This document shows positions 27,803-55,204 of a stretch of DNA of 64,000 nt, piece after piece (position 1 is the stretch's first letter; each line of letters starts with the position of its first letter). Where the stretch lies: positions 12,586,001 through 12,650,000 of the forward strand of contig OZ360247.1 in assembly GCA_977017645.1 (NCBI GenBank). Reading direction: 5' to 3'. The translations under genes and the position numbers were made by a program. Below the pieces are notes generated by a model. The model was not told where the DNA came from and did not search any database. It was given only the letters and a program-made list of their open reading frames with translations. This stretch comes from Torpedo marmorata. Its lineage: Eukaryota.

Positions 27803-28002
27803 ACCTCAGCCGGTCTCGTCGCGTCCATAGGAGGTAAAGATATTATCAACGTTTCGGGCCTGAGCTCTTCGACAAGGGCTCAGGCCCGAAACGGCGGTTA
27901 TATATCTTTACCTCCTATGGACGCTGCGAGACCTGCTGAGTTCCTCCAGCATTTCTGTGTTTTTACCACAATCACAGCGTCTGCAGACTTTCGTGTTTCA
28001 CT
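27803..28002. mobile_element. Fold-back (palindromic) PLE-tail element
   Basis: Inverted arms centred near 27870; 11-bp TSD cctgaaacgtt at 27792-27802 and 28003-28013. Confidence 0.8.
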
Positions 28003-28560
28003 CCTGAAACGTTTTGCTCTTTCTGCAGGTGCTGCCGAACCTGCCAAGTGTTTGCATCATTTTCTGTTTTTAACAAGGGAGCATAGTATCCGTCCTATCG
28101 GTTCCAGAGTCTTTATTGAATTCTAATATTCATCGCGTTACACGGCATTGTTGTTGCATGAGAACTTGTACGTTAAAATATCTTCAGTTTCCCTCTTATC
28201 TCGCCTTAGCCGAGGCCTGCCTCTGATCTTGCTTTCTCACACAGTGCAAAACAGTTTTCTTTCTCTGGGGGGAAGAAATCCATTGCATTTAATTTCGTTC
28301 ATTCATTTGAAGGCCGTCACGGGCTGGCTTTCTAAATCAACCCCGTACTTTACTAACAATGCTAGGAATTTAGAAATTGTTACTGTGTCCAAATTACTAG
28401 TGAAGTCAACGAGAAATTGACCCGGAAAGATTGTTGCAGGAGGTGACTGAATTAATCCTCTGAATATTGTTACTAGACTTGTACATGAAATGCATCAGCC
28501 CCAACGCAATACGTCAATTTAAGTTACCTTCTTATCTTTCTAGAGTCCACTGCATCTAAA

Positions 28561-28672
28561 ATGCATAGAACTACTCGGATCAAAATCACAGAACTGAACC
28601 CTCACCTGATGTGCGCCCTGTGCGGGGGATATTTTATAGACGCCACAACAATCATAGAATGTCTACACTCAT
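28561..28672 (+). CDS. PCGF2: PCGF2 coding exon 1 ([37 protein letters not shown]); exon starts at 28544 with 17 nt of 5'UTR
   Basis: Acceptor cttatctttctag|28544; ATG at 28561 with A at -3; donor t|gtgagt at 28673. Confidence 0.97.
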
Positions 28673-31600
28673 GTGAGTTTATTTTGATATAAACTTCGGT
28701 CTAAAATCACACCGATTTCTCTTACAGCCCTTTTGGTCTATCTGCTGCCGAAAATTCAGTGCATTTTTGTAAAATGACCAAGGCATTTCTGAATCATGTT
28801 TGAAGCAGCTTAATTCTTCTCTAAATTACGAATCGTTTTGTTGCAACAACAGCGCATGCTATCTTGAGATATTACGGGTTGTCACGTTTTTAAAAAAAAA
28901 AAATTCACGGTGTAATTTTTTTACCTTCTGCAACTAATAGACTTAACTCACAACATTAAGATTTCAAATAGTAAAATTCGTAAATCCGAAATAGTTCACT
29001 GTCACTGGGATTTATGTTACAATAAACCAGTTGGGATTTTTTTTTGCCCAGGCGCCATGGCGTCACCTGTTCTCCTTTCTTTAAATCACTAGGTGTCTTT
29101 GTTCGACACTAAACATATATCAGTAGCACCGCGAATGGCGAAACAGATGGAACTCACGGAGCTCTCTGCTCCCCCGATCACATTATAAGAATAGTACGAA
29201 TGGCGCATTCTGAGAGTTTCACAAGTGGAATCAGTAGTCGCTAGACATGCGCCACCTCTTTATCTATTTACCTTCGTTCAAAATCTACCCCAATGTCCAC
29301 GAACAGCGCAAATATCTGATTAAAATATAACTTCCACCCAGGTAGGAGAAAAGGTTGTAACACAATCTGACGGTTCATGTGACGTGTGGGAACAGCTGGA
29401 GCTTTGTTCGGTTGTTGCTGAGGTCGTGGTAATCCCTCCTTTATACTAACACCCTTGTAACCCTCCCCTGCCCCGACCAGGGTAGCAAACAGCTTCTGCC
29501 CCTTCCTATCTCGCTAATACATGAGTTACAGACAACTTGCAAAACTCTTGCTGCAACGTTATTCCCAATCACCATAGTCAATTGGCATTTTTAATCACAT
29601 ATGTTAATTTAAATAGTTTAATTTTACAATATTACTGAGAACAGATGACATTCCACACACTTGCTTATTTTCAATGTACACTGCAGTTGGGATTTTAAGA
29701 AACATTTTCCCATAAACTATTGGTGGAAAATTGCATGTTAAATATGTAATGATATTGAAACTGTTGTCTGAATTCAGTCTCATATTGCAGGCAGGTTATT
29801 CTGTTGTTCCATTTAATTTGATCATTTATTCTTGTTTTGTTAAATTTTAAATTTAAAAATATTTACAGCACGGTAGAAGCAAATTCCACCCATTTAAACC
29901 TGTGCTGCCCAATTCCACCCAAATTAATCTGCAACCCCATACATTTTGGAGGGTGGGAGGAAACCGGAAAATGCAAGGACAACTTATGATCTGTCTCTAA
30001 TCAGTTAAGGACATTTTGATTATTTGGACCAAACATCCAAATAATCAATGGGAAATGATTTATAGAGACAATTAATGTAACTAAGCCACGAGTGTATGTC
30101 AAACATGACAATGTGTACAGTACTTCAAAAGACTTTTCATCACTGACAGATTTATTATCTAGTTCAAAAAAAGGTTGAATAATAAAACCACCCCAGTAAG
30201 TTACATAATCAGAGAAAGGAATTAAATCTTATCGATTAAGTGACCTTTTGAGAATTATTCAATCTAGTTTGGGATGTTATTTGGAGACTTTTGATTGGAT
30301 TATAGTTTTAGATCTAATTTCATAAATCCATGTCCATCAGTTAAGGACGTATGATTCAAAGTTAAACTATTCAATAGCCTTTTTATCAATATACAGTATC
30401 TAAAGCATATATTATTCTCCATGGAATTCGATTTCAAAAGTTTTGCTGGAGAGTGACAATATTCTATATAATTAATAAACACCTGCTACCATCAGGAAAG
30501 AGGTATAGGTGCCACAAGACTCACACCACCAGGTTCAGGAACAGCTGCTACCCCTCCACCATCAGACTCCTCAGCAACAAACTCAATCAGGGACTCATTT
30601 AAGGACTCTTACTTTTGCACTTTTTTTGATTTTTTTTATCTCTGTATGGCACAGTCAGTTTGTTTACATTACTTTATTTGTTTATATGTGTATGTTGAGT
30701 ACACTTTTTTTGCACTACCAATAAGTGGTAATTCTGCCTCGCCTGCAGGAAAATTAATCTCGGGGTTGTATGTGATGTCATGTATGTAACTCTGACAATA
30801 AATCTGAAATCTGAATCTGAAATCTGAAACAGACAATTCCTCGATTGTGTTATGCAGTTATGATCAGTGTCAAATGACTAGTATTTTCCACGTGAAACAG
30901 CTGAATGAACACCTTTGCTGAAATCCATTTATTTTTTTTATGCACTCCTGAATACACCCTAACCCCCAGAATGAGGTTACAGGCTTCACAACCTGAGCCA
31001 GGTATCTGATTATATCTCCGTGCAAACAGTCCCAATCACAAATCAAATTGCACGTTTGAAATAACTCACAGATACCCAATATTATGCATTAAAACAATAA
31101 ATAATAGGTAAATTACAGCATTGCAAACACTCCCAACTGTGTTCATTCCTCAGATAAAGCACCTTAACCCTCTAATCAGATGAATCTCTATGTACTTTAC
31201 CAGTTGTAGGTAGGCCACTTGATATTTCCTTATAATTCCCACATGACTTTGATTTTACGACTTATTTACTTGTTTTGAATCTTTCTGAATGTCGCGAAGA
31301 CAAGTTTTACATGGAAGTAAACTACTTTTCTTCCTGCAATCTCTGTTTTCCTTTTCCCACACTCCAACCAAGACTCCTTTGCAGGTAGCTAACATCCACA
31401 ATCCCCAAATTAAATACCTCAGGGTTTTGAAAAGTGTATTGAATCAAAAGTAAAAATAATGCCCATTAACATTAAACATATTAAATGTTGTTATTAAAAA
31501 AATACACATTTTCTCCTTGGAAGAGCTATTTTATAAGTCTCGGTACTTTCTGAAAGTTGCCATTCTTTTCTTTTCAAGTTTAATGTTGGCATTGTCAGAG

Positions 31601-53629: not shown

Positions 53630-54063
53630 TACCACTGTCTGGATTTGACGTGCCAATGCACAGGAGAGGAAGAGGCTACATAGAGTTGTGAACTCAGCCA
53701 GCGACATCATGGGCATTAGTCTTCATTCCATTAAGGACATCTACAAGTGGTGGTGTCTCAAGAAAGCAGCCTCTATCATTCATCAAGGACCCTCACCACC
53801 CAGGCCATAACCTCCTCTCACTGCTACCATCAGAAAGGAGGTACAGGAGCCTGAAGACGAACACCCAATGGTACAAAAACAGCTTCTTCCCCTCCACCAT
53901 CCGATTTCTGAATGGATAATGAACCACAGACACTACCTCACCCTTTCTCTTCTTTTGCACTAATTTATTTTAAAAATGTAGTTTATAGAAATCTTTGCAC
54001 CTGTAATGCTGCCGCAAAATAATGAATTTTGTGACACATGTTCATGACAATACATTCTGATTC
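53630..54063 (+). mobile_element. Rex1-type LINE 3' fragment
   Basis: ...aaggaccctcaccacccaggcc...ctgctaccatcagaaaggaggtacaggagcctgaagac...catgacaata, then (ttctga)n; reverse complement of the 6641 family. Confidence 0.72.
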
Positions 54064-54953
54064 TGCTTCTGGTTCCTTGTATTTTGTTAACCCTCGCTGA
54101 ACTCACACAGGAGACCATACTTTGTGTTCAGGTATAGACAATGAGCACCCCAGCATCAACAATAGCATCTTGCACTCATGTAGTCTCTCAAATCCTATGA
54201 AATGTCCCAAAGTGATTACCATTATTGTCATTAAATTTTAAAAAAGGCGACATTAGGTCACACAGAGATATTGGGGCAGATGACCAAAGCTTGGATAAAG
54301 AGGTAGGTTTTAAGGAATGTCTTAACGGAGGAGAGAATGGCAGCTGAAAGCATAGCTGTTGGTGCTGGGTCATTTAAAAAGAGGAGAGGACAAGGAAATA
54401 GATTCAGAGGCATTAATAAAAATAAACATTATATTGGATTATGCGAGGATCGTGGGAATGATCCTCGTTTCTCTTGTTCATCTCCAGCAGAGGTCACTAG
54501 ATTAGAAGGAGGAGGGGAATTCTAGTTTATCTACCGATGTCGCCATTCTAACGAAGCTATTTTGCAGCTAGTTTTAATGCCCACTGCTAGCTGAAACTAG
54601 GTAACTCAGAGTGGATCAGTGTTCTTATTGAATTGCCTACAAATGTGCTTGTGGACTACTGAGCAAGTGGTGGGAAGCTACCTCAGATATGTTCCTTTAA
54701 GCAATGTCTCCCTCTCTCAGCACACCACCCCCAACCCCCTGCACTCAATTTTTCCCCACTGCCAATCTGCCCACCACACACCACCCCACTATTGACTCCC
54801 ACCCCACTGATCCCCAGAGGCCAATCCTTGCTTTGCTCTTCTGCCAATTGTCCGCCTAACCCTTCACTTATCCATAAACTGCGATGCTACACACTGCACA
54901 ACTTCTAATGCCCAACTCTCAGCCACAGCCCACTCTTGCATGATCCAGTCCTA

Positions 54954-55204
54954 GTAAAACACGAAAGTCTGCAGACACTGGTTGAAGTAAAAACACAACG
55001 CTGGAGAAACTCAGCAGGTCAAACAGTGTACTTTATACAGCAAAGATTGATATACAAAACCAACATTTTGGGCTTGAGCCATTCTTCAAGGTGATTTACC
55101 TGATGAAGGGCTTCAAGCCCGAAACATTGATTTTGTATCTTGATCTTTACTACATAAAGTACACTGTTTGACCTGCTGAGTTTCTCCAGCATTGCGTTTT
55201 TACT
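54954..55204. mobile_element. Fold-back PLE-tail element with a canonical CTGATGA...GAAA core on the + arm
   Basis: Arms of about 100 bp; CTGATGA 55100-55106, stem GGGC/GCCC, GAAAC 55121-55125. Confidence 0.8.

What the first reader, a model, noticed from the sequence alone, without database searches (positions are those of the whole stretch)
27803..55204. Family of short fold-back Penelope-derived insertions with hammerhead-like cores at the fold point
Seen: four independent 175-250-bp insertions (27803-28002, 32402-32640, 44218-44393, 54954-55204; an older one near 35370-35530). Each is two inverted copies of the PLE 3' tail, and the inversion point falls within or just upstream of (Y)TGANGA-A-GGGC-N4-5-GCCC-GAAAC. 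At least two have TSDs, so each palindrome inserted as one event. Established: PLEs carry minimal type I hammerheads with a palindromic ACGU stem III that can cleave as dimers, and PLE integration often makes inverted terminal copies. Inference: these are either a non-autonomous, retrozyme-like fold-back family mobilised by the GIY-YIG PLE present at 20.2 kb and 62.7 kb, or the hammerhead stem sets where RT truncates and folds back. This is the best candidate here for an undescribed system.
Basis: partly seen in the sequence, partly recalled or inferred. Interest (0 to 1): 0.7.

Follow-up and report, generated by a model that had tools for sequence, protein, structure and literature searches.

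The report
Two-ended Penelope retrotransposon insertion stubs
These small mirror-image repeats are truncated insertions of a known kind of jumping gene (Penelope-like retrotransposons) and likely not a family of their own; their ends suggest each was likely built from two copies started at the two cut DNA ends, which would explain a long-noted feature of this group.

Summary
The four palindromes are real: head-to-head 3' ends of GIY-YIG Penelope-like elements (PLEs), with the 30-40-nt tail on one arm only. Only one has a clear TSD. This layout is published (PMC3846280, PMC8557442). Among 192 genome copies picked by their tail alone, 66 carry an inverted arm. 5' breakpoints spread over more than 1.5 kb, but 37 of 245 arm ends fall in 11 nt at the 5' edge of hammerhead stem I (5.5-fold), in solo copies too, about 30 nt upstream of the predicted cleavage site. 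In 24 of 53 pairs the tailless arm reaches further 5' than the tailed arm, which simple fold-back copying cannot give; two separately primed cDNAs can. A junction shared by 21 copies looked clonal, but a control showed it recurs on other haplotypes through a 3-nt inverted microhomology. So a non-autonomous retrozyme-like family is not supported; one pair (L283/L284) leaves rare re-copying open. The window's PLE fragments belong to a younger subfamily than the palindromes. The core has U3 instead of C3 (90 of 90). The scan has reported this before, in this and other genomes.

The parts
27803..28002 (+). Palindrome a, subfamily B: inverted tailless arm 27805-27877 (about -63 to -139 from the 3' end), tailed sense arm 27874-28001 (-131 to -1), 4-nt AAGG overlap at 27874-27877; no intact core on either strand
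   Evidence: folds as one long hairpin, -30.4 kcal/mol over 56 nt
27792..27802 (+). Left copy of the 11-nt TSD of palindrome a (right copy 28003-28013)
   Evidence: null P(11 nt or more) 0.002
32402..32640 (-). Palindrome b, subfamily B: tailed arm 32402-32545 (to -144), short filler, tailless arm about 32551-32640 with 3 nt missing from the core; no TSD above chance
44216..44393 (-). Palindrome c, subfamily B: tailed arm 44216-44330 (internal deletion near the tail), tailless arm 44327-44393; same AAGG junction as a but with the tail on the opposite arm; TSD doubtful
54954..55204 (-). Palindrome d, subfamily A2: tailed arm about 54954-55094, tailless arm about 55095-55204 ending at -35; no TSD above chance
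35370..35530 (+). Old, decayed PLE end of another subfamily with a hammerhead core at about 35439-35466; inverted arm not statistically shown
20188..20827 (-). 5'-truncated A1 PLE 3' end (GIY-YIG fragment, hammerhead, tail); no RT
62675..63740 (-). 5'-truncated A1 PLE 3' end (245-aa frame with GIY-YIG, hammerhead at about 62780-62820, tail); no RT core
51942..52055 (+). Solo tailless A1 copy (-150 to -35) with an 11-nt TSD: shows that -35 is a 3' end in its own right
27598..27696 (-). Solo tailless copy of an older subfamily whose core keeps C3

Best explanation
The palindromes are head-to-head 3' ends of endonuclease-bearing Penelope-like retrotransposons with the tail on one arm only, each likely made afresh at insertion from two cDNAs primed on the two cut target strands and likely joined through short inverted microhomologies, often at the 5' edge of the hammerhead. 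Steps: (1) the GIY-YIG endonuclease likely nicks both strands about 14 nt apart (TSD shown; nicking inferred); (2) one cDNA likely starts at the tail end, 2-4 nt beyond it, the other at about -35 (both ends shown; priming inferred from the two in-vitro start sites in PMC11167929); (3) both copy the same haplotype, so likely one RNA or one source locus; (4) both stop early, 3- to 7-fold more often at the 5' strand of stem I than nearby (shown; cause unknown); (5) two same-sense cDNAs can pair only at inverted microhomologies, so joining would give a head-to-head repeat with a few preferred junctions. Hammerhead cleavage is likely not what sets the turn.
For: Exactly one tail in 49 of 50, both tails in 0 of 50, short arm ending at -30 to -40 in 37 of 50, TSD of 9 nt or more in 41 of 50 (first 50 listed of 1610 exact matches). 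-35 is also the 3' end of solo and long copies. Tailless arm reaches more than 10 nt further 5' in 24 of 53 pairs, tailed arm in 14, within 10 nt in 15. Inverted copies keep a TSD more often than solos: A1 16 of 20 vs 16 of 39, p=0.006; A2 16 of 24 vs 13 of 52; B 4 of 9 vs 4 of 18. Microhomology of 2 nt or more in 13 of 30 filler-free junctions vs 18% expected, p=0.001. One junction occurs with the tail on either arm, 10:11, as do window copies a and c. Right flanks start with TT in 49 of 75 A1 and 55 of 90 A2 copies, as the full-length element continues after the tail; fillers in L117 and L119 match sequence 3' of the tail. Hot spot: 37 of 245 arm ends, 5.5-fold; A1+B alone (window set on A2) 12 of 132, 3.5-fold, p=2e-4; solos 14 of 126, 5.6-fold.
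Against: All mechanistic steps are read from genomic end products. 10 of 40 A1 junctions carry filler or mismatches rather than microhomology. Three or four of the five window copies show no TSD. With stricter boundary calling the B hot spot is not significant (3 of 39, p=0.19) and A1+B falls to 2.7-fold, p=0.005. A weak excess of ends lies at the predicted cleavage site (11-12 of 245, 2.1- to 2.5-fold, p=0.02-0.004). L283 and L284 share a 16-nt foreign filler yet have different TSDs, which de novo joining does not explain well. A template jump by one RT from a truncated cDNA is not excluded by these data.
Confidence: 0.7

Rival explanations
1. A non-autonomous, retrozyme-like fold-back family: palindromic masters are transcribed and re-inserted as units by the PLE protein.
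For: 21-22 young copies share one junction at -167/-177, each with its own TSD. L283 and L284, 88 kb apart, share a 16-nt filler from another repeat and have different 14-nt TSDs. The two arms nearly always carry the same variants.
Against: The same junction occurs on the other allele background in 17 of the first 50 of 73 loci, other junctions recur as well (a loop-less one in 12 of the first 50 of 66), it is defined by a 3-nt TCC/GGA microhomology, and its carriers fall into at least six haplotypes, some shared with long non-palindromic copies. The 29 best matches to copy d nearly all have different junctions. A long hairpin would sequester the hammerhead.
Confidence: 0.07
2. Self-priming or fold-back: one strand turns at a palindrome and copies itself (the antisense self-priming idea of PMC3846280, or cDNA snap-back at the mirror image of stem I).
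For: Junction microhomologies and perfect palindromic turns; arms share variants; 15 of 53 pairs end within 10 nt of each other; the hot spot is where a cDNA end could first pair with the mirror of stem I (inference).
Against: In 24 of 53 pairs one arm has the tail and the other has the longer 5' part (up to 1.4 kb), so neither can be a copy of the other. The fixed -35 outer end and the hot spot in solo copies are not predicted.
Confidence: 0.1
3. For the hot spot only: it marks the 5' end of a common template RNA (transcription start in a short 5' pLTR, or an exonuclease stop at the folded hammerhead), so RT runs off rather than stalls.
For: Ends pile up at the outer edge of the fold, not at its 3' side where RT would meet it; solos and both arms share the peak; fillers show templates that continue into the element body.
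Against: Of 30 A1 copies that hold the pLTR-body junction, 0 of 20 at risk end in the window and 18 extend more than 10 nt beyond it, so A1 has no single fixed start there; but A1's hot spot is weak (7 of 76) and the difference is not significant (p=0.34). A U-tract just upstream (weak rU:dA hybrid, established chemistry) is a further candidate cause, untested.
Confidence: 0.3
4. Hammerhead self-cleavage of the RNA sets the turn.
For: Stems I and II are kept, with compensating changes between subfamilies A and B; weak excess of ends at the predicted site, mainly in solos (7 of 126, 3.5-fold, p=0.005).
Against: The main peak is about 30 nt upstream of the site, so those cDNAs copied uncut RNA. 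Position 3 is U in 90 of 90 scored copies, which breaks the C3-G8 pair. In Anolis, catalytic mutants insert normally and uncut RNA is the main substrate (PMC11167929).
Confidence: 0.05

Closest known systems
EN+ PLE insertions with inverted pLTR, one-sided tail and TSD (Adineta vaga Pen2a_Av, PMC3846280, passages and Discussion read; general scheme in PMC8557442, passages read)
   Same: Head-to-head inverted 5'-truncated copy, 30-40-nt tail on one end, TSD around the whole unit, palindromic junctions; full-length L211 has exactly this layout.
   Different: Here both arms are usually short, there are thousands of events to count, TSDs are longer (mode 14 vs 8-10), and non-nested arms contradict the self-priming model proposed there.
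Poseidon of Anolis carolinensis in vitro (PMC11167929, main text read, supplements not)
   Same: Two RT start sites that bound the tail, internal initiation, cleavage and extension of both strands, predicted dimer, hammerhead cleavage not needed.
   Different: The parts I read do not treat inverted insertions or 5' breakpoints. There the ORF starts inside the hammerhead; here the likely start is about 40 nt after the tail, and a CxxxxCxxC linker points to the Neptune clade.
Minimal type I hammerheads of metazoan PLEs (PMC4209133, parts 1-2 of 4 read)
   Same: Extra nucleotide after A9, G10.1-C11.1, palindromic 15.2-16.2, mostly in truncated copies; pairs 100-700 bp apart on opposite strands were already noted there.
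   Different: U3 with G8 instead of C3-G8 (that paper reports a U3-A8 covariant); cleavage untested here.
Non-LTR retrozymes (bioRxiv 10.64898/2026.07.22.740005, part 1 of 5 and passages read)
   Same: Non-coding, PLE-related, type I hammerhead.
   Different: Retrozymes are head-to-tail tandems with a hammerhead per unit; these are single head-to-head pairs with variable junctions and often a broken core.
L1 twin priming (recalled, no call)
   Same: Both target strands prime; inversion joined by microhomology; TSD kept.
   Different: In L1 the two cDNAs cover different parts of one RNA; here both cover the same 3' end from two fixed start sites, giving a palindrome.

Membership tests
EN+ Penelope-like element | Single ORF with RT and C-terminal GIY-YIG endonuclease in the parent element | tested here: met
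   L211 1240-aa frame: RVT_1 E=8.6e-6, GIY-YIG E=0.0045, both below Pfam cut-offs; shown for A1 only, B and A2 parents not recovered whole
EN+ Penelope-like element | pLTR formed by a partial tandem, often with an adjacent inverted truncated copy | tested here: met
   L211, L217, L223; 66 of 192 tail-picked copies have an adjacent inverted arm
EN+ Penelope-like element | 30-40-nt tail on one end only | tested here: met
   49 of 50
EN+ Penelope-like element | TSD around the whole insertion | tested here: met
   41 of 50 genome copies; 1 clear of 5 in the window
Neptune clade | [quoted passage not shown] | tested here: met
   CxxxxCxxC motif read in the L211 and window frames; criterion from PMC8557442
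Neptune clade | RT phylogeny | not tested
   no tree built
Minimal type I hammerhead | Stems I and II around the core, extra nucleotide after A9, palindromic stem III | tested here: met
   stem I pairs kept in 20-25 of 27 (A2), 50-54 of 55 (A1), 6-8 of 8 (B); pairs 3 and 6 change on both sides between A and B; MFE folds do not single it out (z -0.4 to -1.4)
Minimal type I hammerhead | C3-G8 core pair | tested here: not met
   U3 in 90 of 90 copies that matched the descriptor; C3 survives in older subfamilies
Minimal type I hammerhead | Self-cleavage as monomer or dimer | not testable with these tools
   needs bench assay
Non-LTR retrozyme | Head-to-tail tandem units, each with a hammerhead | tested here: not met
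   all four are head-to-head pairs
Non-LTR retrozyme | Small circular RNA | not testable with these tools
   no RNA holder listed
Non-autonomous element family | Copies descend from a master with fixed internal structure | tested here: not met
   junctions vary or recur across haplotypes; one unexplained pair; the four window junctions were not each searched genome-wide

The most novel reading that the evidence does not exclude
These stubs are a genome-scale record of two-ended target-primed reverse transcription by a dimeric PLE particle, in which a catalytically crippled hammerhead (U3-G8) is kept as a fold that marks where both cDNAs end; now and then a finished palindrome is itself re-copied as a unit (L283/L284).
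Probability: 0.3. Interest if true: 0.65.

Novelty: new member of a known kind. Interest (0 to 1): 0.35.

Why it matters
How PLEs make inverted ends and a one-sided tail is called undefined in PMC8557442. The counts here link the two in-vitro RT start sites to the two arms, contradict the published self-priming idea for about half the events, and give direct tests (mutate the -35 site, stem I or the core). It also warns annotators: recurrent microhomology junctions can look like a clonal non-autonomous family. As a new system the finding does not hold.

Tried and rejected
Clonal fold-back family at -167/-177: raised, rejected. Rfam: no hammerhead match, only miRNA-like hairpin scores below threshold. 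A 66-nt DNA search of the tail returned nothing because common words are skipped; patterns were used instead. One search gave a false pile-up at -134 from a reference lacking 3 nt; redone. Boundary refinement against long copies over-extends some ends and makes a false pile at -37; raw and refined numbers are both given. Fixed transcription start at -144: inconclusive. RNA: no RNA holder listed; one run of uncertain kind, contigs only, laid, gives no ends or strand. Rows dropped before counts: L026 (same place as L025), L140 and L178 (segmental duplicates), L189 (same event as L188); L138 and L139 proved to be duplicates too but both stayed in the sense-arm count; 13 of 66 inverted arms whose outer end lies more than 60 nt from the 3' end were left out of the pair test. 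Random 200 kb held too few palindromes (2 short ones) for statistics. Literature: searches listed no paper whose title or abstract proposes two-ended priming or a hammerhead-edge breakpoint for PLEs; the three hits were seen as listings only, the library lacks most subscription papers (older Penelope reviews may hold such a model), and supplements such as Fig. S2 of PMC11167929 were not read. I found no paper giving the activity of a U3-G8 core. A sequence look-up of earlier findings was empty.
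Full report
Setting. The window is G000:C61:12586001-12650000 of a 6.2-Gb genome, likely a cartilaginous fish (recalled from the repeat; no call names it). Positions below count back from the element's 3' end (-1).

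Observation. All four palindromes are present. Each joins two PLE 3' ends head to head. One arm runs to the 3' end including the tail; the other stops at -35, -41 or -63. All four turn between -131 and -144. Only copy a has a clear TSD (11 nt); the others are at chance level or doubtful. Copies a, b and c align best to subfamily B, d to A2, and the 20.2- and 62.7-kb fragments to A1; these fragments are 5'-truncated and lack RT, so they are not the helpers. The 35370 copy has a core but no significant inverted self-match. Copies a and c share one 4-nt AAGG junction with the tail on opposite arms.

Parent element. A protein search gave 287,673 first-look candidates, 150 scored; 20 with long frames were fetched. 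L211 is a unit of about 4.8 kb preceded by a 364-nt pLTR and an inverted tailless copy, with a 1240-aa frame holding RT and GIY-YIG. A CxxxxCxxC linker suggests Neptune by the criterion in PMC8557442; no tree was built. After the tail the element continues TTCT, and short copies mostly begin their right flank with TT, which fits internal initiation as shown for the Anolis element (PMC11167929). Seven of the 20 long copies end at -35 to -37 instead.

Hammerhead. In A2 the motif spans stem I 5' strand -144 to -139, core -138 to -132, stem II -130 to -119, GAAAC-GU-H -118 to -111 and stem I 3' strand -110 to -104. Stem I pairs are kept, and two change on both sides between A and B; position 3 is U in 90 of 90 copies that matched the descriptor. 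C3-G8 is a core pair (PMC11167929); the activity of U3-G8 is unknown to me from the searches. In a transcript through a palindrome the motif would be buried in a long hairpin.

Unbiased sample. Exact tail patterns, blind to 5' structure, matched 2407 (A2), 2543 (B) and 17,990 (A1) places. I analysed the first listed 90, 30 and 75, nearly all on contig C1, 192 after dropping three. 66 have an adjacent inverted arm. Of 245 arm ends, 96 lie more than 90 nt upstream of the hammerhead edge, and 37 lie in the 11 nt around the start of stem I, 5.5-fold the flanking rate. The window was chosen on A2 (25 of 113, 7.5-fold); in A1+B alone it holds 12 of 132 (3.5-fold, p=2e-4; refined boundaries 10 of 132, 2.7-fold, p=0.005). 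Solos show it too (14 of 126). Both arms lie in the 5' half of the hammerhead in only 13 of 53 pairs. The predicted cleavage site shows a weak excess (11 of 245, 2.1-fold, p=0.02).

Two cDNAs, not one fold-back. In 24 of 53 pairs the tailless arm reaches more than 10 nt further 5' than the tailed arm, by up to 1.4 kb; neither arm can then be a copy of the other, which contradicts the self-priming reading in the Discussion of PMC3846280 for those events. A pattern for palindromes that turn inside the hammerhead matched 1610 places. In the first 50, 49 have exactly one tail, 37 have the short arm ending at -30 to -40, and 41 have a TSD of 9 nt or more, mode 14. Among the 40 A1 junctions, 30 are filler-free and 13 of these have 2 nt or more of inverted microhomology against 18% expected. 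Inverted copies keep TSDs more often than solos. The two fixed outer ends match the two RT start sites and two-strand extension reported in vitro (PMC11167929). The step from these ends to priming on both strands is inference.

Test of the non-autonomous family. Two loci met by chance shared a junction at -167/-177; it has 21 exact copies, each with its own flanks, tail left in 10 and right in 11. The control reversed it: the same junction is in 17 of the first 50 of 73 palindromes on the other allele, a loop-less junction is in 12 of the first 50 of 66 on the same allele, longer loops show a TCC/GGA microhomology at the join, and the 22 carriers fall into at least six haplotypes, some shared with long copies; arms are clearly discordant in 2 of 22, with some markers unscorable. 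Recurrent joining explains it. One pair resists: L283 and L284 share a 16-nt filler also seen in an unrelated repeat and have different TSDs, whereas two other shared-junction pairs were segmental duplicates. The four window junctions were not each searched genome-wide; for d, none of the 28 other best matches shown has its junction (40 of 5058 candidates were scored).

Cause of the hot spot. Open. Run-off at an RNA 5' end, a protein-bound fold, cDNA snap-back and a U-tract just upstream all fit. Among 30 of 544 A1 copies with the pLTR-body junction none ends in the window and 18 extend beyond it, which excludes one fixed start for A1 but is not significant against A1's weak peak (p=0.34).

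Comparison. The layout is published (PMC3846280, PMC8557442), as are opposite-strand pairs of minimal hammerheads (PMC4209133). Retrozyme membership fails on tandem structure. My searches listed no paper with the two-ended model or the stem I hot spot, within the limits given under Tried and rejected. Earlier notes of this scan, read after my analysis, reach the same reading in this and other genomes; they are not independent support.

Verdict. Real, ordinary in kind, with a useful mechanistic signal. New member of a known kind; interest 0.35.

Noticed in passing
L231, L233, L248, L249 (about +142 after the tail): Four of 30 junction-bearing A1 copies break at +142 to +144 and jump to the 3' region (-865, -92, -216, -281); in L249 both arms hold the body piece ending at +144, so the template was likely a short, internally deleted tandem unit. 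No GT/AG splice ends. A better candidate for non-autonomous derivatives than the palindromes.
   Followed up: partly
L283 and L284 (G000:C1:1975751 and 2063285): Two palindromes 88 kb apart with the same 16-nt foreign filler and different 14-nt TSDs: possible re-copying of a palindrome as a unit.
   Followed up: partly
L117, L119 junctions: Fillers match the element's sequence 30-75 nt downstream of the tail, so the template RNA ran on into the body.
   Followed up: partly
L238, L243, L244, L245, L258: Five of 30 junction-bearing A1 copies have 5' ends at -639 to -662, perhaps a source pLTR boundary.
   Followed up: no
window 36126-36198 (+): tRNA-like match, 57.5 bits; may be a tRNA gene or a SINE head.
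   Followed up: no
window 13003-13447 and 7206-7576: Two long non-PLE inverted repeats (132-nt arms 92%, 19-nt gap; 114-nt arms 96%, 143-nt gap), MITE-like.
   Followed up: no
window 57905-61447 (-): Broken frames resembling L1-type ORF1, endonuclease and RT C-terminus (label recalled).
   Followed up: no
L211, about -4230 to -2870: The A1 ORF holds a long array of repeats of about 57 nt that varies in length between copies.
   Followed up: no
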